Shown here: positions 1-63,996 of the stretch, piece by piece | Layout: every line of letters begins with the position of its first letter | How positions within the stretch are numbered: position 1 is the first letter of the stretch | Source of the DNA: Euglena gracilis | Taxonomy: Eukaryota | NCBI GenBank assembly: GCA_039621445.1 | Contig: CP154954.1 | Coordinates: forward strand, 6,397,425-6,461,424 | DNA length: 64,000 nt | Reading direction: 5' to 3' | Translations under genes and position numbers: made by a program | Notes under the pieces: generated by a model | The model's input: the letters and a program-made list of their open reading frames with translations, nothing else | Databases searched by the model: none | What the model was told of the DNA's origin: nothing

Positions 1-1176
1 TTGCTTTTGGGTCCAAACGGCGCGCCGCAACCACATCCGCCGGGACACCGCATTCCTGACTTCCTGTGGGGTTTCCGAGAAGTGGAGGGTTCCGCGGTGT
101 GCACGCTGCTATCTCGGCCCCTGCAACGAATGGATGGGCACCAGACACGACGCCCAGCCATTGCTTTTGGGTCCAAACGGCGCGCCGCAACCACATCCGC
201 TGGGACACCGCATTCCTGACTTCCTGTGGGGTTTCCGAGAAGTGGAGGGTTCCGCGGTGTGCACGCTGCTATCTCGGCCCCTGCAACGAATGGATGGGCA
301 CCAGACACGACGCCCAGCCATTGCTTTTGGGTCCAAACGGCGCGCCGCAACCACATCCGCCGGGACACCGCATTCCTGACTTCCTGTGGGGTTTCCGAGA
401 AGTGGAGGGTTCCGCGGTGTGCACGCTGCTATCTCGGCCCCTGCAACGAATGGATGGGCACCAGACACGACGCCCAGCCATTGCTTTTGGGTCCAAACGG
501 CGCGCCGCAACCACATCCGCTGGGACACCGCATTCCTGACTTCATGTGGGGTTTCCGAGAAGTGGAGGGTTCCGCGGTGTGCACGCTGCTATCTCGGCCC
601 CTGCAACGAATGGATGGGCACCAGACACGACGCCCAGCCATTGCTTTTGGGTCCAAACGGCGCGCCGCAACCACATCCGCTGGGACACCGCATTCCTGAC
701 TTCCTGTGGGGTTTCCGAGAAGTGGAGGGTTCCGCGGTGTGCACGCTGCTATCTCGGCCCCTGCAACGAATGGATGGGCACCAGACACGACGCCCAGCCA
801 TTGCTTTTGGGTCCAAACGGCGCGCCGCAACCACATCCGCTGGGACACCGCATTCCTGACTTCCTGTGGGGTTTCCGAGAAGTGGAGGGTTCCGCGGTGT
901 GCACGCTGCTATCTCGGCCCCTGCAACGAATGGATGGGCACCAGACACGACGCCCAGCCATTGCTTTTGGGTCCAAACGGCGCGCCGCAACCACATCCGC
1001 TGGGACACCGCATTCCTGACTTCCTGTGGGGTTTCCGAGAAGTGGAGGGTTCCGCGGTGTGCACGCTGCTATCTCGGCCCCTGCAACGAATGGATGGGCA
1101 CCAGACACGACGCCCAGCCACTGCTTTTGGGTCCAAACGGCGCGCCGCAACCACATCCGCCGGGACACCGCATTCT
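1..1176. repeat. 160-bp tandem satellite, block 1 (~7 copies, runs off the window start)
   Basis: Unit cctgacttcctgtggggtttccgagaagtggaggg...gggacaccgcatt recurs every 160 nt with near identity. Confidence 0.97.
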
Positions 1177-1452
1177 GGAGAATATGCTGCCCCAGAGAAT
1201 GCTAACCCCAACCCCCTCCAACTGCGCCCCAAAGTAGAATTGAATTGCTGCTTGTCCTCGCGGCCACTCCCGCTGACCACCCTTGCTGCTGATCCTGAAT
1301 CTGGGCTTCTGCGACCCAAAATAACCCCCAGCGGGCCCGCCACCTTCCCCTCTGTCCCCACCGGTGGCCAAACTATTAATAACAAACACTGGTGTTGGCA
1401 GAATTGCCATGGCATCGTCGTCGGGAATGAGCTGCAGATTGAAGTGCATTGG
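1177..1452. repeat. Non-tandem flank that follows each satellite block (second copy at 4294-4562)
   Basis: Both blocks end in ...cattct followed by ggagaatatgctgccccagagaatgctaacccc...gaagtgcattggcaa; the two copies are similar but diverged. Confidence 0.9.
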
Positions 1453-1734
1453 CAAGCTGCGTGCAAGGGGCGTGCTCAAAAATCGGTTTGGTGCAAGTAT
1501 TTTCCCACCCCCATAACCGGCGTAACTCTTGTCGCACAAACTGCAAAGCGGGGGGGGGGGAAGCAGGCAGGATAGGTGTGGAGCTCTTCCACCGGCAGCA
1601 CACAACAACAAACATTCTGCCCCCCCCCTCCCCCCTGTCCCCCCTGGAACCCAACACCCCACTGCACCCCAAACCCTTTGCCCGCGGGTGGCGGCGATCG
1701 CCTCCGCCAAATACGCACCACGCGCCACGCCGAC

Positions 1735-4293
1735 CCTGACTTCCTGTGGGGTTTCTGTGAAGTGGAGGGTTCCGCGGTGTGCACGCTGCTATCTCGGCCC
1801 CTGCAACGAATGGATGGGCACCAGACACGACGCCCAGCCATTGCTTTTGGGTCCAAACGGTGCGCCGCAACCACATCCGCTGGGACACCGCATTCCTGAC
1901 TTCCTGTGGGGTTTCCGAGAAATGGAGGGTTCCGCGGTGTGCACGCTGCTATCTCGGCCCCTGCAACGAATGGATGGGCACCAGACACGACGCCCAGCCA
2001 TTGCTTTTGGGTCCAAACGGCGCGCCGCAACCACATCCGCTGGGACACCGCATTCCTGACTTCCTGTGGGGTTTCCGAGAAGTGGAGGGTTCCGCGGTGT
2101 GCACGCTGCTATCTCGGCCCCTGCAACGAATGGATGGGCACCAGACACGACGCCCAGCCATTGCTTTTGGGTCCAAACGGTGCGCCGCAACCACATCCGC
2201 TGGGACACCGCATTCCTGACTTCCTGTGGGGTTTCCGAGAAATGGAGGGTTCCGCGGTGTGCACGCTGCTATCTCGGCCCCTGCAACGAATGGATGGGCA
2301 CCAGACACGACGCCCAGCCATTGCTTTTGGGTCCAAACGGTGCGCCGCAACCACATCCGCTGGGACACCGCATTCCTGACTTCCTGTGGGGTTTCCGAGA
2401 AGTGGAGGGTTCCGCGGTGTGCACGCTGCTATCTCGGCCCCTGCAACGAATGGATGGGCACCAGACACGACGCCCAGCCATTGCTTTTGGGTCCAAACGG
2501 CGCCGCAACCACATCCGCTGGGACACCGCATTCCTGACTTCCTGTGGGGTTTCCGAGAAGTGGAGGGTTCCGCGGTGTGCACGCTGCTATCTCGGCCCCT
2601 GCAACGAATGGATGGGCACCAGACACGACGCCCAGCCATTGCTTTTGGGTCCAAACGGCGCGCCGCAACCACATCCGCCGGGACACCGCATTCCTGACTT
2701 CCTGTGGGGTTTCCGAGAAGTGGAGGGTTCCGCGGTGTGCACGCTGCTATCTCGGCCCCTGCAACGAATGGATGGGCACCAGACACGACGCCCAGCCATT
2801 GCTTTTGGGTCCAAACGTCACGCCGCAACCACATCCGCCGGGACACCGCATTCCTGACTTCCTGTGGGATTTCCGAGAAGTGGAGGGTTCCGCGGTGTGC
2901 ACGCTGCTATCTCGGCCCCTGCAACGAATGGATGGGCACCAGACACGACGCCCAGCCATTGCTTTTGGGTCCAAACGGCGCGCCGCAACCACATCCGCTG
3001 GGACACCGCATTCCTGACTTCCTGTGGGGTTTCCGAGAAGTGGAGGGTTCCGCGGTGTGCACGCTGCTATCTCGGCCCCTGCAACGAATGGATGGGCACC
3101 AGACACGACGCCCAGCCATTGCTTTTGGGTCCAAACGGCGCGCGCAACCACATCCGCCGGGACACCGCATTCCTGACTTCCTGTGGGGTTTCCGAGAAGT
3201 GGAGGGTTCCGCGGTGTGCACGCTGCTATCTCGGCCCCTGCAACGAATGGATGGGCACCAGACACGACGCCCAGCCATTGCTTTTGGGTCCAAACGTCAC
3301 GCCGCAACCACATCCGCCGGGACACCGCATTCCTGACTTCCTGTGGGATTTCCGAGAAGTGGAGGGTTCCGCGGTGTGCACGCTGCTATCTCGGCCCCTG
3401 CAACGAATGGATGGGCACCAGACACGACGCCCAGCCCTTGCTTTTGGGTCCAAACGGCGCGCCGCAACCACATCCGCTGGGACACCGCATTCCTGACTTC
3501 CTGTGGGGTTTCCGAGAAGTGGAGGGTTCCGCGGTGTGCACGCTGCTATCTCGGCCCCTGCAACGAATGGATGGGCACCAGACACGACGCCCAGCCATTG
3601 CTTTTGGGTCCAAACGGCGCGCCGCAACCACATCCGCCGGGACACCGCATTCCTGACTTCCTGTGGGGTTTCCGAGAAGTGGAGGGTTCCGCGGTGTGCA
3701 CGCTGCTATCTCGGCCCCTGCAACGAATGGATGGGCACCAGACACGACGCCCAGCCATTGCTTTTGGGTCCAAACGTCACGCCGCAACCACATCCGCCGG
3801 GACACCGCATTCCTGACTTCCTGTGGGATTTCCGAGAAGTGGAGGGTTCCGCGGTGTGCACGCTGCTATCTCGGCCCCTGCAACGAATGGATGGGCACCA
3901 GACACGACGCCCAGCCATTGCTTTTGGGTCCAAACGGCGCGCCGCAACCACATCCGCTGGGACACCGCATTCCTGACTTCCTGTGGGGTTTCCGAGAAGT
4001 GGAGGGTTCCGCGGTGTGCACGCTGCTATCTCGGCCCCTGCAACGAATGGATGGGCACCAGACACGACGCCCAGCCATTGCTTTTGGGTCCAAACGGCTC
4101 GCCGCAACCACATCCGCCGGGACACCGCATTCCTGACTTCCTGTGGGGTTTCCGAGAAGTGGAGGGTTCCGCGGTGTGCACGCTGCTATCTCGGCCCCTG
4201 CAACGAATGGATGGGCACCAGACACGACGCCCAGCCATTGCTTTTGGGTCCAAACGGCTCGCCGCAACCACATCCGCCGGGACACCGCATTCT
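1735..4293. repeat. 160-bp tandem satellite, block 2 (~16 copies)
   Basis: Same unit as block 1, with a few SNPs and 1-2 nt deletions (near 2500 and 3143). Confidence 0.97.
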
Positions 4294-6347: not shown

Positions 6348-6824
6348 CTGTGGAAAGACAGCGCGCATCAGTTGACAAGCCAACCCGTTCATTGTCAGAA
6401 CAGACAGCACAGCTTGCGATCTGCTTGAATATTTTGGAAGAGCCCACACCGCGGTTACAACCGTGGTACATCGCCCTGATATCGCAGTTACGTGGGCAAG
6501 GTGCCTTGCAAGGTAGTAGCGGAGGCAGAGTTCAAAATTCTCTTTCAATTCAATGACTGGAGACAGCACAGTGATTTGGGCATGACGGTTCAAAGATCCA
6601 CGTGATCACCCTTTTTGCTGACACTGTTCAACCGGAAAAGAGGTCCAAACATCGAATTTTTCGAGAACCAAAAATTTTCCCAACAGAAATTGAAAAATCG
6701 CCAGGAGAAAAGGCAAAAAAATACAAACAAAATGCAAAAGAACCCTACAAACTTTGCCAAAATTGAAAAACACACAAAAAAGACAAAGAAATCCCTCCCC
6801 TGAAGACAGTGTCACTTGGCACAC

Positions 6825-7086
6825 CTTGGGGTGAAAATATTTGTAATACACAGTTCGCACGACGGAGTCGCCGTTGAACGTGATCCCCCACTCCTCCAGC
6901 AGGGCGTTCAGGTTGGTGTTGAACCGGGGGTCGCCTCCCGACGCCAGCATGAGCAGGACGCTGCCGCCGCCGGCCAGGTACTCCTTGATGGCGGCCAGCT
7001 CTTGCTCAGAGAACTTTTCCCGTGGCCCGGCGAACACCACCAAGCTGGCTTTTTTCAGGGAGTCAATCGACACCTCATCCTTGTTT
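6825..7086 (-). CDS. IFT52: IFT52 (intraflagellar transport protein 52) exon, GIFT domain
   Basis: NKDEVSIDSLKKASLVVFAGPREKFSEQELAAIKEYLAGGGSVLLMLASGGDPRFNTNLNALLEEWGITFNGDSVVRTVYYKYFHPK carries the IFT52 motifs GPREKF and VVRxVYxKYFHPKE; acceptor ccag|, donor |gtgtg. Confidence 0.93.
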
Positions 7087-8151
7087 CTGGGGTGGTGGGG
7101 AAAAATATGCAAATAGGGGGACAAAACCTTCAATTGAAGACAGGGTTTGATGGTTAACCATTTAACCGGTTGACCATTTCTTGGGCCAGTTAATAAACCG
7201 CTCGATGGATGGATGGTTGGCCAGTGAAGGCCGCGCATTTGCATTCTTTTTCTGTCGGCATTGCCTAATTTGATAGAAAATCTTGCCAAATTCCTATTTC
7301 GAATTTTTTTCACACTTCACACCATATTTTTTGCACTTCCTGTCAATTTGTTTGTGCCTTATCTCAAAAATGTTTGCCCTTGTCCCTAGAATATTTGCCT
7401 CCGTTCCAAAAATTTTTGCACTTGGATCGGGTGTTTTTCACAGTTGCCCTTTGAAACTTCAATTGGCGTGGACCTTTTTCCATTGCCCAGTGTAAGGCTT
7501 TTTTCATCGAACGAAAATAAAATGGCAGAGTGCAAAAATTTTCGCAACACATGCAAATATTTTTGGGGCGCAGTGCAAAAAATTTTGAGACCTTTGGGTA
7601 TTTTTTTTGAGGATGCAGGGCAAACTTTTTGACAGGTTGGGGCAAATATTTTTGCCAGCATTTCAGACGCCAGGTGTAATACCCTGAACCCGGGCCAGAT
7701 GCCCAGGTATGGGTTTCGACTCGAAGCGCCAAAATTTTTTTGGGAAATTGAATTTTGGGAAACTTTGAGGAAAGTTCAGAAACTAATCACCCAAAAGGTC
7801 GCAATGTGAAAAGAGCTTTTTCCCCCAAATTGGCAGGAGAGCAAGCAGTGGGTCATCTGCACCGTTCGGGGGGGGGGGGGACACGAGACAAGGTGTTGAA
7901 ACCGTGGAGTGGGGGATCTGATTTCACGCCTGAAACTCTGTATATGGAGGCACTCCTTATTCCTTATTTCCAAAATGTTTTCGCAATGATCCCCAACTGA
8001 GAGAGCATGGTTGAAAGGCTCTGCGTCCATCAGCAGTAATCGCATTTGGGATGCCCCAACGCTTTTTCATGTATCCAAGGCGATTGCTGTCCATTACTTT
8101 TTGCAGTTTCTGCAATTTTCCGTAAGTTTCTTTTCGAAACATCCACATGTT

Positions 8152-13854: not shown

Positions 13855-14775
13855 CCTAAATTTTGGTGTTTTTCTGAGTTTTGGAACTTTGGCAAAACCG
13901 GTGAAAGTCCCCCCCACTTCTGGAGATGCCAAGTGGTTACACAAGGATCATTCAGAGAACACCTTTTTGCAATTACTCTTTCCTTTGCACGACTGATGTG
14001 GACTCTTTTCGCATGCTCTTGCAATACCAAAGCTTTAAATCCACTGGGGGCAGAACAATTGGAGCCACCTCCCTGGATGCACTTGTGATTCCCCCCCAAT
14101 TAGTCGTTCGTTTGTGGGGGGACAATTAACCACAGTTGATTAAAATTTGATTAATCGCTTGTGACCCCCAGTCAATCTCTTCTGTTTCTTTGTAGAAGAA
14201 GAGATGTTCTGAGGTTGGGAACATTTCTTCAAAGAAGATGGCAAGGTTTTGTGCAATGCCAATGTGGATGAAAAATCCTTTCCAAAAGCCTTAAAATGTC
14301 ACATTTAAAACTCTGTTTGATGCAACATTTTCTGGACACCAAAATTTGTGGGTCCCCTGGCCCACTTGGTGAGTGAGGGGGGGTGTTCTCCCCGTGCCCC
14401 CCCCCCCCCGCGTCCCCGCGTCCCCCCCCCGTCCCGGATTTTGGCTCGGCACATTTTTCCGTAATGACGTCAAATAAAATGTGTGGGGGAAGCCGGGCCA
14501 CATTTCCCCCCGCGTCCCCCCCCCCCGCGTCCCGAACCACCCAGGGAATCAGCCATGCTAACGCCGGATGTTGCTTTTTGTTTTTTTTTGAAAAAAGTGA
14601 TCCAGTGGCGGTTAATCGAAATTAATTGAGGGAAAGGCACGGTTAATCAAAAATTGCGATATCGACGCCTGGCCCCTGATTAACCATGGTTAATCGCTTG
14701 ACCTTAAAACCTATTTTCTGGGCCCGACGCCTGTCTTGAAATTCTACTGACATTAACGGATTTCAGGCTGAAATT

Positions 14776-14863
14776 GTTTATGTCGGTCGATTTCCATTCA
14801 GGCGCCCGTTTATGTCGGTCGATTTCCATTCAGGCGCCCGTTTATGTCGGTCGATTTCCATTC
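14776..14863 (+). repeat. 32-bp direct-repeat array, left end of the YR element
   Basis: gtttatgtcggtcgatttccattcaggcgccc at 14776, 14808 and 14840 (partial). Confidence 0.95.
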
Positions 14864-15870
14864 CATTGAAATCTGTTGCTGGTCAAATGCAGGACAGGGA
14901 AATCACAGCGACAGGGAACATAGCTCAGTTGCCGAGCAGACAGGTTGATGAACAAGGCCCCTTTTGGAAGGGGACAGTAGACGGAGGAGGGTGACAAATG
15001 GCGGTGTGCACCACAGTGGTGCGAGCTGCAAGGCAGCTGAGGAACAAAAACTCACATCACACAACAATGGGTATCACATGTCACTCCATGGCCTTGTGGC
15101 ACCCCTCACACATCCACCCGAAAACGGGGCGGGTGACGCAGGTTAGCACAACGCCAATGCCACCAAACAGCACAGAGCTCACAACGAACGCCCCGCATGT
15201 CACGACAGTCCGTTTTTTTTGGGGATAGGAACACTGCACACCCCACACAACGGACAGTCCGCAGGGGAAGGCAAGGGAAAAACGGATGGAATGTTCGCCG
15301 TGCTCACTGCTACGGGGGCACCCTCCTCCGCCGGGGGCGCCTCGAACATGAGCTGCCGCAGTTGAGTAATCACTTATTACAGACATGCAGACATGGGACG
15401 TGAGCAGTTGCAAAATGACGAATCTGATGGGAACAAGTTGCGGCGTTCCGCAACTGCCCGGCATCGTCCGGGCACTCCTCCAGTTTGAAGGAGCGGACGG
15501 GCACGCACCAGCGCTGCAGCTGTAAAAAATGAAGTGCGTGACATTTTACCTGTGGACATTTTACTACCTTTGCAGTGTATTCCTGTTTTTGCGATTCCGT
15601 CATGACGTCGAGCTTGCCACACGGTTGTGACAGGATGTCACTGATGTCCTCATCGACATCTATGGGCTCCTGCGGCGTGCCCATCAACCGCCGCCGCTTT
15701 GTGGAACGAGGAACCTGAGACGTGTGAGTTAGCATTACCGCTTACCGTTTGCTGAGAGTGTCACCTTCACTGCTGGTCGCGTCTGCGCAACAACCGTGTC
15801 TGCGGCAGCAGGCACCGGTGGTTGGTCGTCCTGCAACGCGTTTGCATCATGAAGTTCATGGCACGGTACA

Positions 15871-16215
15871 TCCTGTGGGGGGTAGAGCGGGTGGGGGACA
15901 CGACCCCAGGCAAATTTGTTGCACCTCTGTCATCACGTCGCACAGTTCCACGTGTTGGGGTTCAGCAGGTGCCTCAGTGGGGGGTGCATCCTGTGGGGGG
16001 TAGAGCGGGTGGGGGTCAGGACTCTAGGCTCTGTGTTGCACCTCTGTCTTCGCGTCCCAGGGTTCCAGGTGTTGGGGTTCAGCAGACGCCTCCGTGGGGG
16101 GTGCATCCTGTGGGGGGGTAGAGCGGGTGGGGGTCAGGACCTACGGAACTCTGTTGCACCTCTGTCTTCACGTCGCAGGGTTTCAGCTGTTGGGGTTCAG
16201 CAGACGCCTCAGAGG
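15871..16215. repeat. ~118-bp tandem repeat (3 copies) in the YR C-terminal tail
   Basis: cctgtgggggg(g)tagagcgggtggggg...tgttgcacctctgtc...gttggggttcagcag at ~15871, 15990 and 16107. Confidence 0.85.
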
Positions 16216-17479
16216 GGGAAAGTGCCTCAGCCGCGCTTTCAGGAGGCTCAGCCTTCACAGCCCCCACAGCCTCCCCCTTGGTTACGCCTGCCAAAATGGC
16301 AGCCGCAACCCTGGGCGTCCCCGCCGTCATGCGGTGGTACACCCCCACGGTTTGCCTGGCAACCCCAAAAAACTTTGCGACGTCCTCCCGTGGCAACTCG
16401 GAGTTGGCCAGGCGTGTCATCGCGGCACGCCTGGCCAAATCCTTGAAGGTAAGCTGGCGCCCCAAACAGCGGGAGACCCAGCTTGCCACACCACGGAAAA
16501 AACCTTCGCCGATTGGACCGTTGCCCAAGCTTTTGGAAAACGGGGTGACAGTGCGGGAAAAAAAAATCATTTTCCCCGGAGACAGAGCTGGAAGCTCCTG
16601 TCAACAAACCGCACTGGCGTTCAAAAGCCGCAATGGCGCAAACTGTGGGATCCGCAGAGGGGGCAATAATTTGTCTGAACAAATGGGCGTCGTGGGCCAT
16701 GTCGGCTGGCATGTTTTTCATGGACCCGACCACAAACTTTAGACTTTTCTGCCCATCCGTTTTCACAACTTGCAGGGATTTGGTTGTGAGACGACAAAGA
16801 ACTTCGGCACGCAGTCCCGTCCGGAAACCAAAAACCAGCAAATTGTACCTTTGCATTTCCAGGACGCTGTTTGGGTTGTACTGCGTGCTGAGAGAGAAAA
16901 GTTCCGCCTCCGTCAGAATCCCTGTGTCGGTCCTTTGGGCAGCTTGCACGGCACGCACCCCTCTCTCACGTTTCAGCACTGGGGAGATAAATTCATTGGT
17001 CAGCGGGAACTGCCGCTGCGACGAGGCGACCAGGGCGATGGCAGGGGCAGACTGGTTGTACGCACGCATGAGAGCGTTCACGTACGTCCGCCAAGGCTCT
17101 GCCGAAGTTTCCTTGGGTGAAAAACTTTATCTGGCCCGTTGATCGTTGCAAAGTTGCACCCCAGCCGGCGTATCAAAAGATACACAGCCTGGATGACACG
17201 CCGTCCCCATGCCCGCAGCAATTCGTCCAACGAGCCATACACTACAGCCTTTTGCTCACAAAAATCAACAAACCCCAAAAAATTTGTAATGCTGGCTCGT
17301 TGAACGTTCTGGGCACCACTTAATTTCTTGGGAGGCGAGGCAAACAACGGACCATTCACCGGATCATCGTCCTCCTTTTTTCCACCAGCCGATAAGTTAC
17401 GAATCACTGCCACGAAATCCTCCAAGGGGGGTGGGGGGCTCAAACTGGCCTCCATCACTAGGCTTGCACGGCGGGCCAT
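16079..17479 (-). pseudogene. Intronless tyrosine recombinase, disrupted (frameshifts near 17190 and 16560, in-frame TAA near 17128)
   Basis: Ordered YR motifs: FRTGLRAEVL (catalytic R), GSMKN (K), DPTVCAIAAF, NDFFF, GPIG, LTFKDLARRAAMTRL (box B variant), DVAKFFGVARQTVGVY (catalytic Y). A degenerate repeat-rich tail probably continues to ~15370. Confidence 0.8.
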
Positions 17480-17562
17480 GAGGGGGACTGCGGAACCACA
17501 GAGGAATTCACGCACGGAAACAGCACGCAGAAGAGACACACCTCTGGCTGAAGACCGGAATC

Positions 17563-17730
17563 TGTTTAGGTCAGTCGATTTCCATTCAGGCTGAAGTTGT
17601 TTATGTCGGTCGATTTCCATTCAGGCGCCCGTTTATGTCGGTCGATTTCCATTCAGGCGCCCGTTTATGTCAGTCGATTTCCATTCAGGCGCCCGTTTAT
17701 GTCTAACGGTTTCCATTCAGGCGCCCGTTA
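17563..17730 (+). repeat. 32-bp direct-repeat array (~5 copies), right end of the YR element, same orientation as the left array
   Basis: Same unit; both arrays also include the variant ttcaggctgaa(a/g)ttgtttatg. Confidence 0.95.
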
Positions 17731-17828
17731 ATGGGCCAAAAACCACTTTTTTGGCCATATTTCCGTCCAGGCGGTTCGGTCGAATGAATATCAAGACAGG
17801 CGTCGGGCCCAGACAAAATAGGTTTTAG

Positions 17829-17932
17829 AAAAATCGACCGACACTAACAGATTCAGCAGGGGCGCCGGGCGGCTCGCTTCGCTCGCTCGCACCCAGCGCC
17901 CCTGCTGAATCTGTTAGTGTCGGTCGATTTTT
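17829..17932. repeat. Long hairpin: 37-bp perfect stem with a GCTC-repeat loop
   Basis: aaaaatcgaccgacactaacagattcagcaggggcgc / gcgcccctgctgaatctgttagtgtcggtcgattttt; the loop contains gctcgcttcgctcgctcgc. Confidence 0.95.
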
Positions 17933-18487
17933 GTATAGAAAATGACGGTTAATTGCGCAACCTTGATTGGAGACCATGGACTTCCATGGAAACATACTCC
18001 AAGCGAATTCCGGATGCCGGTACACTTCATTCCACTGAAGAGTAAGAGCATTCTGTGTGGAGACAAGGGAAGTGTACCGAAACGTTTCCCCCTTCCAGAA
18101 TTTTTGGGAAATACGGCCGGGACCGTAGATTCGTGCGAACTCAACTGGACAGGGGTCGGGAGCGCAAAGTGCCGAAATTTTTTGAAAAATAAGTGTTTTT
18201 TTTTTTTTTTTTTTTTTTTTTGATGAATTTTTAAATAATTTTTGAGAATGGCCATTTTGGCCATTTTCGGCCATTTTGGGGGCCAATTTTTGTCGAGTCT
18301 ACCAGTCCAGTCAGGTTCTAGGAAGGGGGGGGGGGGGGGGGTCACCCGGACCCCCCAGTGGAGTCAGGAACTGAACTGGACAAGGGGAATGAGGGGTCCA
18401 AAAATGAACTGAACTGGACAACCTAGTCCCCAAGGGACGTCCCCGAAACAACCAAAACAAAACACCAAAACACCCCCCCCCCCCAAT

Positions 18488-18914
18488 CAGGCTTTTGCTT
18501 AAGGGATTGCAGTAGGGATTGCAGGGGGGGGGGCTGGGCTGCAGCTAGTCCAAATTTGGCTAGTGGGATTTCTAGCAGACCCCCCGGGGGGGGGGGTCTG
18601 CCAGCAGGGCTAGCTAGTGGAAATTTTTTTTCTAGTGACCGGCGCGAAGCGCCGGAATTTTTTTTGGGACCCCCAAAAATGGCCAAAAATGCCCATTTTT
18701 GGCCATTTTTGGGAATTTTTGGAACAAAATCAGCCAAAAACCTCTTAAAAACCTCATTTCCACCTCGGCGCACAGCGCCGGAGGAAAATTTTTTTCCAGT
18801 GGGGGGGACCCCCGGACCCCCCCGGGGGGGGGTCCTAGCTAGTCCATTTTTTCCAGTGTCTAGTCGATTGGCTAGCCAGTACCCCCCCCTGGGGGTCCTT
18901 AAGCAAAAAGCCTG
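18488..18914. mobile_element. CAG...CTG MITE with 8-bp TSD (hAT-like)
   Basis: TIR caggcttttgcttaagg / ccttaagcaaaaagcctg; flanks cccccaat / gccccaat. Confidence 0.85.
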
Positions 18915-19106: not shown

Positions 19107-63636
<44,530 letters not shown>

Positions 63637-63822: not shown

Positions 63823-63996
63823 TGCCGACCGCAGCCGACCGCAGCCGACCGCGGCCGACCGCGGGTTTCAGGACTGTCATAGGTGGGGTGCCGACCGCAG
63901 CCGACCGCAGCCGACCGCGGCCGACCGCGGGTTTCAGGACTGTCATAGGTGGGGTGCCGACCGCAGCCGACCGCAGCCGACCGCAGCCGACCGCGC
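63823..63996. repeat. gccgaccgca 10-mers inside a ~67-bp tandem unit
   Basis: gccgaccgca x3-4 + gggtttcaggactgtcataggtggggt, repeated. Confidence 0.9.

What the first reader, a model, noticed from the sequence alone, without database searches (positions are those of the whole stretch)
16320..16830. YR catalytic signature is atypical: K-D-L-A-R-R instead of H-x-x-R, and G-V instead of G-H/W
Seen: R (GLR), K (MKN), TFKDLARR and FFGVARQTVGVY. Known: Lys in place of the box-B His occurs in type IB topoisomerases (KDLR-like) and protelomerases (KDSR-like). The last segment reads like a classic HTH (DVAKFFGVARQTV). Inference: with the adjacent long palindrome, the enzyme might resolve or create hairpin ends rather than carry out standard integration. 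It could instead be simply decayed.
Basis: partly seen in the sequence, partly recalled or inferred. Interest (0 to 1): 0.7.

Follow-up and report, generated by a model that had tools for sequence, protein, structure and literature searches.

The report
Histidine-less tyrosine recombinase of Euglena transposon
The odd motifs are real and are the conserved hallmark of a previously undescribed family of Cre-like recombinases, carried here by a broken copy of a 3.2 kb transposon of Euglena gracilis whose end sequences are far more abundant in DNA reads than its gene.

Summary
On the minus strand, 16811-16334 encodes GLR, MKN, TFKDLARR and FFGVARQTVGVYH. The motifs are not decay. A library-wide HMMER search found 103 relatives. 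Of 39 sequences covering all key positions, 27 carry exactly R-K-K-D-R-V-Y. None has His at the box-B position (0 of 51) or His/Trp at the G-V valine (0 of 45).

AlphaFold models (pLDDT 88.8 and 86.9) match Cre over both domains (Z 17.6-19.9). Protelomerases score Z 6.4-9.1 and TopIB 6.8-11.9. From the aligned ranges, R64, K95, D187, R190, V213 and Y221 correspond to Cre R173, K201, H289, R292, W315 and Y324. So Asp, not Lys, sits at the His position.

The host is Euglena gracilis. The gene lies in a 3232-bp element (14706-17937) with 40-nt inverted ends, 32-nt subterminal tandem repeats and a terminal palindrome. Contigs from public runs show a head-to-tail or circle junction, empty-site-like joins and end-to-end deletion forms. 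Word depth at the ends is hundreds-fold higher than inside.

The window's copy has a stop and two frameshifts. Reads remove the stop and one frameshift in every contig run that covers them, and the other frameshift in one run.

The hairpin-resolvase idea is not supported. Verdict: a new variant of Crypton-like tyrosine-recombinase transposons.

The parts
14706..17937 (-). Whole mobile element (3232 bp). The recombinase gene is on the minus strand.
   Evidence: The boundaries come from joints. 17937>14706 'goes back 3232' was seen in X10 (2 contigs, depth 140.9, side 46) and X14 (2 contigs, depth 18.6, side 30). 14706>17939 'skips 3232' was seen in X14 (2 contigs, depth 141, side 24). A 14703>17937 join with one A between was seen in X10 (depth 55.4). 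Loose ends before 14704 agree poorly (0.35-0.45), which indicates many different left flanks.
14705..14744 (.). Left terminal inverted repeat (A').
   Evidence: It pairs with 17786-17827 at 39 of 40 positions with one 2-nt gap.
14762..14895 (+). Left subterminal array of 32-nt tandem units (about 3-4 units). Candidate recombinase binding sites.
   Evidence: Repeat families D1 and D3. A 22-nt unit core is found 7 times in the window (3 left, 4 right, all on the + strand) against 0 expected.
15370..15735 (-). Probable C-terminal part of the protein: a KRRR stretch, an acidic IDVDED..LSQP motif and a Cys/His-rich tail. Its join to the upstream frame is unresolved in this copy.
   Evidence: ORF. 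The acidic motif resembles VDAFDDYDEHPLTQ in P0016, P0046 and P0112. There is no Pfam hit. A PHD finger occupies this position in 2 of 10 homologues scanned above the Pfam cut-off (P0046, P0049); P0016 is just below it and P0112 is weak.
15865..16218 (.). Three 118-nt tandem repeats in the linker after the catalytic domain. They carry further frame breaks in this copy.
   Evidence: TRF reports period 118, 3.0 copies, 87% matches. Copy variants in reads include 15708>16114 skipping 405 in X10 and X15, and several indels.
16280..17000 (-). Catalytic domain (read-through P0114, 240 aa). Key codons: R64 16811-16809, K95 16718-16716, K186-D187 16444-16439, R190-R191 16432-16427, G212-V213 16366-16361, Y221-H222 16339-16334.
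   Evidence: (pLDDT 88.8, pTM 0.83).
16555..16564 (.). Frameshift in an A9 run (T9 on the coding strand). The window has one base too many.
   Evidence: A 1-nt deletion at 16555 is present in X10 (239.6 of 239.6, 1 contig). X14 does not show it (0 of 96.1) and instead has -2 at 16557 in 31.2 of 54. X15 has no depth at this place.
17127..17129 (-). In-frame TAA stop specific to the window's copy.
   Evidence: 17129 A>G turns TAA into CAA (Gln) in all depth of X10 (957.3 of 957.3), X14 (113.4 of 113.4) and X15 (11.3 of 11.3), and in 1 of 1 X21 read. The homologue P0002 has Gln there.
17175..17178 (.). Frameshift in an A4 run. The window lacks one base.
   Evidence: 'Put in behind 17174: A' in X10 (486.7 of 486.7), X14 (61 of 61) and X15 (11.3 of 11.3). 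With this change, 17129 A>G and the deletion at 16555 (six further read-reported substitutions were applied in the same script), the minus-strand frame over 17620-16082 is open for 513 codons.
17081..17479 (-). N-terminal part of the protein, with a likely start at MARRAS (17479). In the homologue model this region forms a helical core-binding-type domain.
   Evidence: The P0004 model aligns with Cre residues 22-341 over 300 residues.
17553..17750 (+). Right subterminal array of 32-nt tandem units (about 6), in the same orientation as the left array.
17786..17827 (.). Right copy (A) of the 40-nt inverted repeat. It lies just inside the palindrome.
17826..17935 (.). Terminal palindrome. Each 44-nt arm holds one repeat-unit-like sequence, and the centre is an asymmetric 22-nt spacer. 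The spacer is 18 nt with the letters most reads carry at 17891 and 17895.
   Evidence: 17891 A>G in 48791 of 49033.9 and 17895 A>G in 34648.6 of 37373.6 in X10. In the head-to-tail junction A' follows the right arm, so the arms grow to about 84-86 nt (inference).

Best explanation
The region encodes the catalytic domain of a two-domain, Cre-like tyrosine recombinase. It is the only protein of a 3232-bp Crypton-like DNA transposon of Euglena gracilis.

The atypical active site is the conserved state of a whole protein family: Arg, beta-hairpin Lys, Lys-Asp where His-I normally sits, Arg-Arg, Gly-Val where His/Trp normally sits, then Tyr-His. It is not damage. The four residues that matter most in Cre are kept (two Arg, the Lys, the Tyr). 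Both histidines are absent.

Inferred mechanism:
- The recombinase binds the 32-nt subterminal units and the inverted unit-like arms of the terminal palindrome.
- It cleaves with Tyr221.
- It joins the element's right end to its left end. This junction completes a palindrome of about 190 bp.
- It then recombines that junction with A-rich target sites, as proposed for Cryptons.

Short end-to-end derivatives are far more abundant by word depth than the coding copies. They would be mobilised in trans.

The window's copy is dead or mis-assembled. It has one stop and two homopolymer frameshifts in the N-terminal and catalytic part, and further breaks in the repeat linker.

Shown: the motifs, their conservation, the fold, the residue correspondence at range level, the element borders and the joints. 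Inferred: catalysis, the binding sites, and a circle rather than a tandem junction.
For: Family and conservation:
- 103 relatives at E<=1e-3.
- Column counts over 114 aligned sequences, many of them fragments: R64 103 of 107, K95 88 of 98, K186 42 of 54, D187 44 of 51, R190 45 of 52, R191 45 of 51, G212 36 of 45, V213 35 of 45, Y221 38 of 42, H222 38 of 43.
- Of 39 sequences covering all seven positions, 27 read R-K-K-D-R-V-Y.

Fold:
- Catalytic-domain model: pLDDT 88.8, pTM 0.83.
- Foldseek top hits are Tn1549 Int, Cre, XerH and XerA, with E from 3.3e-6.
- In the unbiased search of 48,161 chains, all 33 chains with Z>=5 are YR, TopIB, protelomerase or Crypton-derived proteins. Cre leads at Z 17.6, and the next unrelated hit is at Z 4.4.
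- The full-length homologue P0004 (pLDDT 86.9) aligns with Cre 22-341 over 300 of 320 residues, Z 19.9, rmsd 3.9.

Residue mapping:
- hhalign pairs R64 with Cre R173 and K95 with K201.
- Range ends 212~314, 223~326, 224~327 and 226~329, and in the second model G383~314 and 397~329, place V213 at W315 and Y221 at Y324.
- An ungapped run places R190 at R292 and D187 at H289.

Mobility:
- Joints, empty-site-like joins, end-to-end deletion joins (14764>17759, 14785>17671, 14796>17860, 15203>17659) and diverse left flanks.
- Word depth in X10 is 1.4-3.7e5 at the ends, 267-2046 inside and about 3e4 in the flanks. The contrast is similar in X14 and X15.
- There is no reverse transcriptase or second gene in the element.

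Intact frame in other copies.

Chemistry: in Cre only Tyr324 and Lys201 are strictly required. His289 and Trp315 tolerate many substitutions (PMC2943603, abstract and sections 22-23 read).
Against: - In Cre itself, H289D and H289K are among the five inactive substitutions at that position, and small residues at W315 give weak activity (PMC2943603, sections 22-23). A conserved Lys-Asp there is unexpected for an active enzyme.
- No Pfam family reaches its cut-off. PF00589 scores only E 0.012-0.049 in 4 of 10 homologues scanned, and nothing on the window's pieces.
- The D187~H289 assignment rests on range ends and an ungapped stretch. I could not read model coordinates.
- The joints rest on short-read contigs laid at 90% likeness with short sides (24-46 letters). 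A head-to-tail joint can come from a tandem copy as well as from a circle.
- The frame-restoring 1-nt deletion at 16555 is seen only in X10, in a single contig.
- RNA support is thin. In X21, internal depth is at most 1.6, over 16538-17221 only, with about 5% of the run read. X15 is only guessed to be RNA.
- No DNA loci of relatives could be fetched, so the end structure is known from this element alone.
Confidence: 0.75

Rival explanations
1. Hairpin-forming or hairpin-resolving enzyme. The recombinase would act like a protelomerase on the long palindrome and make or resolve covalently closed hairpin ends instead of performing conservative integration and excision.
For: - The F-K-D letters resemble TelN's Y-K-D-S-R.
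- A strong palindrome sits at the element's right end.
- The junction would extend it to arms of about 84-86 nt, which looks like a replicated-telomere structure.
- An asymmetric centre could be a hairpin loop. I could not test whether it occurs in both orientations.
Against: - Protelomerases are the weakest superfamily matches: TelA Z 9.1, TelK 8.4, ResT 6.4, against Cre 17.6, XerA 17.4 and XerH 16.7.
- The full-length homologue matches all of Cre and has no extra protelomerase domains.
- TelN keeps K-x-x-R and G-H...Y. This family has K-x-x-x-R and no His.
- The centre of the palindrome is not self-complementary over 18-22 nt.
- The joints listed lie at 17937|14706, the outer edge. None of the 15 listed joints changes strand at the centre; 91 further joints were not shown.
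Confidence: 0.06
2. Catalytically dead recombinase-fold DNA-binding protein, comparable to DUF3504 proteins or Ndc10. The fold would be kept for binding the repeats, and the elements would be moved by something else or no longer move.
For: - Asp or Lys at the His-I position inactivates Cre (PMC2943603, section 23).
- There is no His/Trp at the second position.
- Some members carry a PHD finger, a chromatin-reader domain.
- QRICH1 (Z 9.9) and Ndc10 (Z 9.5) are among the structural matches.
Against: - According to PMC3212892 (passages read), the dead Crypton derivatives lost the Tyr and the second Arg. Here R64, K95, R190 and Y221 are kept in 88-96% of the sequences that cover them.
- The gene sits inside a multi-copy element with defined ends, diverse flanks and empty-site-like joins. 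It is not at a single host locus.
- No other candidate transposase lies in the element.
Confidence: 0.12
3. Remnant of a DIRS-like tyrosine-recombinase retrotransposon that lost its reverse transcriptase. The inverted ends plus an internal inverted copy of the end-to-end junction would be a DIRS-type ITR/ICR design.
For: - A·rcU (17786-17869) is the reverse complement of the right-end/left-end junction. As I recall it, this is the logic of the DIRS1 internal complementary region; I did not check that in a paper.
- The nearest named ESM-Atlas cluster (score 0.98) is an ALOG plus Phage_integrase family of eukaryotes. This is a lead only.
Against: - There is no RT or RNase H in the 3232-bp element.
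- I read 19 family proteins as aligned sequence or Pfam scans and saw only the recombinase. The contigs on record for the 20 clusters looked up are 1.2-3.2 kb.
- No relative of 1239-3535 residues was found. This is weak evidence because of the length band searched.
Confidence: 0.05
4. An ordinary canonical recombinase whose motifs have decayed in this copy.
For: The copy carries a stop and frameshifts.
Against: The same residues are present in relatives down to about 25% identity. His is found at position 187 in 0 of 51 sequences, and His or Trp at position 213 in 0 of 45.
Confidence: 0.01

Closest known systems
Cre recombinase of phage P1 (simple tyrosine recombinases: Cre, XerA, XerH, Tn1549 Int)
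   Same: - Both domains superpose: Z 19.9, 300 residues, rmsd 3.9 for homologue P0004. The window's catalytic domain scores Z 17.6-19.4.
- Arg-I, the beta-hairpin Lys, Arg-II and the Tyr at the end of helix M are kept.
- There is a C-terminal helix N equivalent: model residues 228-236 fall within the range aligned to Cre up to 341.
   Different: - Asp (with a preceding conserved Lys) replaces His289.
- Val replaces Trp315/His.
- There is a one-residue deletion between that position and the Tyr.
- His directly follows the Tyr.
- Sequence identity is only 12-14%.
- The protein is eukaryotic, has a long C-terminal extension, and in some members a PHD finger.
Crypton DNA transposons (CryptonF/S/A/I; Kojima and Jurka 2011, PMC3212892, passages read)
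   Same: - A eukaryotic element whose only gene is a tyrosine recombinase, with no reverse transcriptase.
- Non-autonomous derivatives are much more abundant than autonomous copies.
- A circular intermediate is the expected mode of movement.
   Different: - Described Cryptons keep the R-H-R-Y tetrad. Here the His is missing.
- Animal Cryptons have no terminal repeats. This element has 40-nt inverted ends, direct 32-nt subterminal arrays and a terminal palindrome.
- The host group is different: the Crypton table in PMC3212892 lists no euglenozoan.
- Phylogenetic placement among Crypton groups was not tested, because no Crypton sequences were at hand.
Protelomerases (TelN, TelK, TelA, ResT)
   Same: - Same superfamily fold.
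- An aromatic-Lys-Asp triplet precedes the second Arg (TelN Y-K-D-S-R).
- They act on long palindromes.
   Different: - Spacing is K-x-x-R in TelN against K-x-x-x-R here.
- TelN keeps G-H and the 9-residue spacing to Tyr.
- Much lower structural scores (Z 6.4-9.1).
- The palindrome here has an asymmetric centre, and the observed break point is at its outer edge.
Type IB topoisomerases
   Same: - Same catalytic fold (Z 6.8-11.9).
- No His at the His-I position. PMC2943603 section 23 states that TopIB has no equivalent of His289 and that its Lys220 points away from the scissile phosphate.
   Different: - TopIB keeps the second His (His265 in vaccinia, same paper).
- TopIB has a different N-terminal domain, whereas this family matches Cre's N-terminal domain.
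- This protein is encoded in a mobile element with specific repeats.
DIRS1-type retrotransposons
   Same: - A tyrosine recombinase.
- Inverted ends plus an internal inverted copy of the end-to-end junction (my recollection of the DIRS1 layout; not checked in a paper here).
   Different: - No RT/RH.
- The element is only 3.2 kb.
- The subterminal repeats are direct tandem arrays.

Membership tests
Tyrosine recombinase / TopIB superfamily (fold level) | Catalytic-domain fold shared with Cre, Xer and lambda Int | tested here: met
   Z 17.6 to Cre over 194 residues, rmsd 3.2. All 33 chains with Z>=5 of 48,161 belong to the superfamily or its derivatives. Foldseek E from 3.3e-6.
Tyrosine recombinase / TopIB superfamily (fold level) | Arg-I, beta-hairpin Lys, Arg-II and Tyr nucleophile at equivalent positions | tested here: met
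   R64~R173 and K95~K201 by hhalign. R190~R292 and Y221~Y324 from aligned range ends in two models. Conservation is 103 of 107, 88 of 98, 45 of 52 and 38 of 42.
Canonical tyrosine recombinases (Pfam PF00589 Phage_integrase) | His-I three residues before Arg-II (H-x-x-R) | tested here: not met
   Asp at that position in 44 of 51 sequences, and His in 0 of 51.
Canonical tyrosine recombinases (Pfam PF00589 Phage_integrase) | His or Trp nine residues before the Tyr (G-H / G-W) | tested here: not met
   Position 213: V 35, I 4, L 2 of 45, with no H or W. Position 212 (nine residues before Tyr): G 36 of 45, H 1 of 45.
Canonical tyrosine recombinases (Pfam PF00589 Phage_integrase) | Score above the Pfam gathering cut-off (27.1 bits) | tested here: not met
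   13.8-15.8 bits in 4 of 10 homologues. No hit on the window's pieces.
Canonical tyrosine recombinases (Pfam PF00589 Phage_integrase) | Covalent 3'-phosphotyrosine catalysis | not testable with these tools
   This needs biochemistry.
Crypton transposons | Mobile element encoding a tyrosine recombinase and no reverse transcriptase | tested here: met
   Element 14706-17937. The only long ORFs belong to the recombinase, and there is no RT/RH Pfam hit.
Crypton transposons | R-H-R-Y catalytic tetrad (PMC3212892) | tested here: not met
   The His is absent.
Crypton transposons | Clustering with CryptonF/S/A/I recombinases in a tree | not tested
The Crypton-derived QRICH1 and the Ndc10 structures score Z 9.9 and 9.5.
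Protelomerase (telomere resolvase) | Closest structural similarity to TelK, TelA or ResT, with their extra domains | tested here: inconclusive
   TelA Z 9.1, TelK 8.4, ResT 6.4, well below Cre at 17.6. The full-length homologue is covered by Cre alone.
Protelomerase (telomere resolvase) | Substrate palindrome with a self-complementary centre, cut near the dyad | tested here: not met
   The centre is an asymmetric 18-22 nt spacer. The joints are at 17937|14706, outside the arms.
Protelomerase (telomere resolvase) | Hairpin-ended products | not testable with these tools
   None of the 15 listed joints changes strand, and 91 joints were not shown. A direct test needs native DNA.
Type IB topoisomerase | K-x-x-R plus a conserved second His, and a TopIB N-terminal domain | tested here: not met
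   Spacing is K-x-x-x-R, there is no second His, and the N-terminal domain matches Cre.
DIRS-like YR retrotransposon | RT and RNase H in the same element | tested here: not met
   None in the element. No long fused relatives were found (weak evidence).

The most novel reading that the evidence does not exclude
This would be a clade of eukaryotic tyrosine recombinases that catalyses strand exchange without either active-site histidine. An Asp that kills Cre sits at the His-I position, perhaps neutralised or replaced in function by the neighbouring conserved Lys186/Arg191 or by His222 next to the nucleophile.

That clade would drive one of the most abundant repeat families of the very repeat-rich Euglena genome. 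It would do so through a junction that forms a palindrome of about 190 bp containing an internal inverted copy of its own recombination site. In this reading the palindrome is not decoration. It is a two-site substrate that allows inversion or a hairpin-type step in addition to integration.
Probability: 0.3. Interest if true: 0.8.

Novelty: new variant of a known kind. Interest (0 to 1): 0.62.

Why it matters
- **Active-site chemistry.** The family keeps only the residues shared with type IB topoisomerases (Arg, Lys, Arg, Tyr). It fixes Lys-Asp and Val at the two positions where recombinases normally carry His and His/Trp. Mutagenesis of Cre found Asp or Lys at the first of these to be inactive. 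A naturally mobile family with these residues would show a different way to build the site, and it gives clear point mutants to test.
- **Euglena genome content.** The finding names a concrete autonomous element, with its ends, behind a very abundant repeat of Euglena gracilis. In the paper searches made here I found no description of a tyrosine-recombinase DNA transposon in Euglena.
- **Element architecture.** Inverted ends, direct subterminal arrays and an internal inverted copy of the end junction combine features otherwise split between Cryptons and DIRS-type elements.

Tried and rejected
- **Paralogues in the window.** There are none. blastn of 14600-18000 and tblastn of the three protein pieces found only the element itself. 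The consensus-from-paralogues check was replaced by external relatives.
- **Whole genome and earlier findings.** Neither was available.
- **Frameshift read-through.** Four-letter steps GATT and TTCC hit other in-frame places. CCGC on a shorter reference worked.
- **Cre C-terminus by hhalign.** hhalign of the family C-terminus against the single Cre sequence gave only a meaningless match (probability 0.3). The profile search of PDB sequences gave only weak HTH hits (E 0.48 and 0.77).
- **DNA loci of relatives.** Nothing was found in metagenome contigs with alignment A3 or with protein P0108. Nothing in viral contigs or in prokaryotic genome contigs. The first attempt, with A2, was too diverse to search.
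- **Longer fused forms.** None among proteins of 1239-3535 residues. The length band was wider than I intended, so proteins of about 710-1238 residues were not searched.
- **Names or taxa for relatives.** No source named an organism for the 20 clusters looked up. The only named relative is P0001, 'Genlisea aurea M569_16518'. I suspect it is a euglenid contaminant of that plant assembly; this was not tested.
- **Putative intron 15736-15766.** There is no support. X15 record 19 runs through it without a gap.
- **RNA.** No RNA holder was listed among the indexed runs. The raw RNA run X21 gave few internal reads.
- **Other checks.** No Rfam family or tRNA in the window. No Pfam hit for the window's C-terminal ORF or its N-terminal piece.
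- **Protelomerases in the Foldseek-based lists.** They were absent. They appeared only in the wide search.
- **Paper searches.** These returned nothing on such an element: Euglena gracilis + tyrosine recombinase (6 papers, none on it by listing); Euglena + Crypton + transposable elements + genome assembly (0 papers); Euglena + Crypton (3 papers, all unrelated); tyrosine recombinase + PHD finger + DNA transposon + protists.
Full report
**What is at the coordinates**

The window is not prokaryotic. It has little coding density and many microsatellites. One exon, 6840-7100(-), is 100% identical to the EukProt entry EG_transcript_9433, an IFT52 homologue by the names and shared Pfam domains of its relatives in that search. 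It is 80% identical to an unnamed Eutreptiella gymnastica protein carrying those domains. I therefore take the host to be Euglena gracilis.

The finding lies on the minus strand. Reading three frames over 17700-15300 shows one gene split across frames:
- an N-terminal piece, 17479-17081;
- a middle piece, 17099-16557, with GFRTGLRAEV and VGSMKNMPA;
- a third piece, 16570-16082, with TFKDLARRAAMTRLAN and AKFFGVARQTVGVYH.

The exact codons are 16817-16809, 16721-16713, 16450-16427, 16366-16361 and 16339-16334.

**The motifs are a family trait, not decay**

There is no paralogue in the window, so I used outside relatives.
- A full HMMER scan of 1.84 billion representatives with the middle piece found 103 proteins at E<=1e-3, 44 at E<=1e-10, and a best hit of 5.5e-80 at 73% identity.
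- A word-based search with the third piece found a 476-aa protein labelled Genlisea aurea M569_16518, 59% identical.

Alignments of the longer relatives give the consensus TFKDxxRRxxMTRLAN...AKxxGVxxxTxxxYH, down to about 25% overall identity. Over 114 aligned sequences, many of them fragments, the column counts are:

| Position | Count |
|---|---|
| R64 | 103 of 107 |
| K95 | 88 of 98 |
| K186 | 42 of 54 |
| D187 | 44 of 51 |
| R190 | 45 of 52 |
| R191 | 45 of 51 |
| G212 | 36 of 45 |
| V213 | 35 of 45 (plus I 4, L 2, M 1) |
| Y221 | 38 of 42 |
| H222 | 38 of 43 |

- His never occurs at position 187 (0 of 51). His or Trp never occurs at 213 (0 of 45). His occurs once at 212 (1 of 45).
- Of 39 sequences covering all seven key positions, 27 read R-K-K-D-R-V-Y.
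- In 19 of 44 sequences a His follows the Val (G-V-H). The window's copy has Ala there.

**The fold**

Pfam gives no significant hit. Phage_integrase reaches only E 0.012-0.049 in 4 of 10 homologues, and weak HTH families cover the last segment.

To fold the window's own catalytic domain I read through the frameshift by reference (window:16280-17000:-, four-letter step CCGC=R; 240 aa).
- With a 50-row alignment, AlphaFold2 gave pLDDT 88.8 and pTM 0.83.
- Foldseek against the PDB put Tn1549 integrase, Cre, XerH and XerA on top, with E from 3.3e-6.
- VIA-align against 48,161 representative chains gave the ranking below.

| Chain | Z |
|---|---|
| Cre | 17.6 (194 aligned, rmsd 3.2) |
| XerA | 17.4 |
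| XerH | 16.7 |
| Tn1549 Int | 15.7 |
| IntI | 14.4 |
| lambda Int | 13.5 |
| XerD | 11.9-12.2 |
| bacterial and variola TopIB | 11.9 |
| Flp | 10.2 |
| QRICH1 | 9.9 |
| Ndc10 | 9.5 |
| human Top1 | 9.5 |
| TelA | 9.1 |
| TelK | 8.4 |
| SSV1 Int | 8.4 |
| ResT | 6.4 |
| first unrelated HTH protein | 4.4 |

A second model, of the intact 439-aa homologue P0004 (pLDDT 86.9, pTM 0.78), aligns with Cre residues 22-341 over 300 residues (Z 19.9, rmsd 3.9). The family therefore has both the core-binding and the catalytic domain of a simple recombinase.

**Which residue sits where**

I had no access to model coordinates, so the mapping uses three sources:
- hhalign, which pairs R64 with Cre R173 and K95 with K201;
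- the ends of aligned ranges: model 212 with Cre 314, 223 with 326, 224 with 327, 226 with 329, and in the second model G383 with 314 and 397 with 329;
- an ungapped comparison of TFKDLARRAAMTRLANSELPREDVAKFFGV with Cre WSGHSARVGAARDMARAGVSIPEIMQAGGW.

These agree on R190~R292, V213~W315, Y221~Y324 and D187~H289, with K186 at Cre G288. There is a one-residue deletion between V213 and Y221.

The conserved pair is Lys-Asp, and the Asp takes the His position. I rate this assignment as probable, not certain.

The residue two before position 213 is a large hydrophobic (L 18, F 16, V 6, M 4 of 46). Gibb et al. describe that position as packing against the tyrosine in most recombinases.

**Comparison with known chemistry**

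Gibb et al. 2010 (PMC2943603; abstract and sections 22 and 23 read) report the following for Cre:
- Only Tyr324 and Lys201 are strictly required, and the two Arg tolerate little change.
[quoted passage not shown] - Small residues at 315 are weak.
- TopIB enzymes have no equivalent of His289, and their Lys220 points to the neighbouring phosphate.

So this family keeps what is essential. But it fixes, at the His-I position, residues that do not work in Cre. That is the real oddity.

N15 TelN reads RRVYKDSRAIY and later ILGHDDENTQLHY. However, TelN has K-x-x-R and keeps G-H...Y, unlike this family.

**The element**

The gene is flanked by 32-nt tandem units in the same orientation on both sides, at 14762-14895 and 17553-17750. 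The unit core occurs 7 times against 0 expected. Outside these arrays lie 40-nt inverted repeats, 14705-14744 and 17786-17827 (39 of 40). On the right there is also a palindrome, 17826-17935, whose arms each contain a unit-like sequence.

I laid contigs of two DNA runs (X10, X14), one run guessed to be RNA (X15) and raw RNA reads (X21) on 14600-18000. This showed the following.
- **Head-to-tail joint, 17937>14706.** X10: 2 contigs, depth 140.9, side 46. X14: 2 contigs, depth 18.6, side 30.
- **Empty-site-like joins.** 14706>17939 in X14 (2 contigs, depth 141, side 24, 3 shared letters), and 14703>17937 with one A between in X10 (depth 55.4).
- **Joins of left-end to right-end sequence that skip the gene:** 14764>17759, 14785>17671, 14796>17860, 15203>17659.
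- **Loose ends before 14704** with poor agreement (0.35-0.45), meaning many different flanks.
- **Word depth in X10:** 1.4-3.7e5 over the ends, 267-2046 inside, about 3e4 in the flanks. The contrast is similar in X14 and X15.

Caveats: word depth is not a copy number. The sides of the joints are short and the lay was at 90% likeness. A head-to-tail joint can be a tandem copy or a circle.

Taken together, the borders are 14706 and 17937 (3232 bp). In the head-to-tail junction the left inverted repeat follows the right arm of the palindrome, so the arms extend to about 84-86 nt. Put another way, the element carries, just inside its right end, an inverted copy of its own end-to-end junction.

With the letters most copies carry at 17891 and 17895, the central spacer is 18 nt. 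It is not self-complementary.

**State of this copy**

Reads differ from the window at three disabling places.
- An A is inserted behind 17174 in all depth of X10, X14 and X15.
- 17129 A>G turns a TAA stop into Gln in all depth of X10, X14 and X15, and in the one X21 read.
- One base is deleted at 16555 in X10 only (239.6 of 239.6, one contig). X14 shows no such deletion (0 of 96.1) and has -2 at 16557 in 31.2 of 54. X15 has no depth there.

I applied these three differences, together with six further read-reported substitutions, in a script. The result is an open minus-strand frame of 513 codons over 17620-16082, collinear with P0002, P0004 and P0001.

The linker with 118-nt repeats has more breaks: a G7 run where the other units have G6, and a TAG. 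The window's copy is therefore degenerate, partly mis-assembled at homopolymers, or both. Other copies appear intact through the catalytic domain.

**Relatives elsewhere**

- No relative was found in viral contigs, prokaryotic genomes or the JGI metagenome contigs.
- The sources gave no organism names for the 20 clusters I looked up.
- Two of 10 homologues scanned (P0046, P0049) end in a PHD finger above the Pfam cut-off. P0016 is just below it and P0112 is weak. The window's C-terminal ORF has none.
- An ESM-Atlas look-up put an ALOG plus Phage_integrase eukaryotic cluster nearest, at score 0.98. This is a lead only.

**Literature**

Kojima and Jurka 2011 (PMC3212892, passages read) describe Cryptons as keeping R-H-R-Y, and animal Cryptons as lacking terminal repeats. 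Their host table lists no euglenozoan.

Four searches combining Euglena with Crypton or tyrosine recombinase found no description of such an element. The library does not cover most subscription journals or Repbase, so a Repbase entry cannot be excluded.

**Verdict**

- The motifs mark a conserved family of Cre-like recombinases without either active-site histidine.
- The family is carried by a Crypton-like transposon of Euglena with unusual ends.
- The hairpin-resolvase reading is not supported but not formally excluded.
- This is a new variant of a known kind, of moderate to high interest to people working on recombinase mechanisms and on protist mobile DNA.

Noticed in passing
window 6606-7313 (-), esp. 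6840-7100: An exon of an IFT52 (intraflagellar transport) homologue. It is 100% identical to EukProt EG_transcript_9433 and 80% identical to an unnamed Eutreptiella gymnastica protein with the same Pfam domains. It identifies the host as Euglena gracilis.
   Followed up: partly
window 1-4292: A 160-bp tandem satellite: 7.3 copies at 99% and 16 copies at 98%, with higher-order periods of 320 and 480. It produces long spurious repeated ORFs on both strands.
   Followed up: no
window 44055-46551; also 49376-49606, 50201-50402, 53271-53565, 57135-57597: Very long microsatellites. (ATGT)n runs for 626 copies, about 2.5 kb. There are also several (GT)n, (GTGT)n and (GTAT)n arrays. They cause strong GC and AT skew at 44-46 kb.
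   Followed up: no
window 14600-14705 and 17938-18000 (flanks of the element): Both flanks carry repeated GGTTAAT(C/T) motifs and have a similar high word depth in reads (about 2.9e4 and 3.3e4 in X10). The element seems to be inserted in another high-copy repeat.
   Followed up: partly
window 14389-14541 and 18194-18340, 18580-18900: Long C, G and T homopolymer runs, and TTTTGGCCATTTTTGG-type simple repeats that form short palindromes. Such runs are places where long-read assemblies often err. That bears on the two homopolymer frameshifts in the gene.
   Followed up: no
P0001: The only named relative is annotated as a Genlisea aurea (carnivorous plant) protein on a 1.9-kb contig. Its N-terminus begins with the acidic ...IDADDWPLTQ motif that ends other family members. 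This suggests a contaminant contig from a trap-dwelling euglenid and a head-to-tail or circular reading.
   Followed up: no
window 34533-34834 and 61161-61458, 63823-63995: Further tandem repeats: period 126 (proline-rich in translation), period 19 with 15 copies, and period 66.
   Followed up: no
window 14885 and 17556 (loose ends): Many contigs leave the window's sequence just inside the repeat arrays and continue with a shared different sequence (agreement 0.77-0.94). This points to a dominant short or different-interior subfamily that uses the same ends.
   Followed up: no
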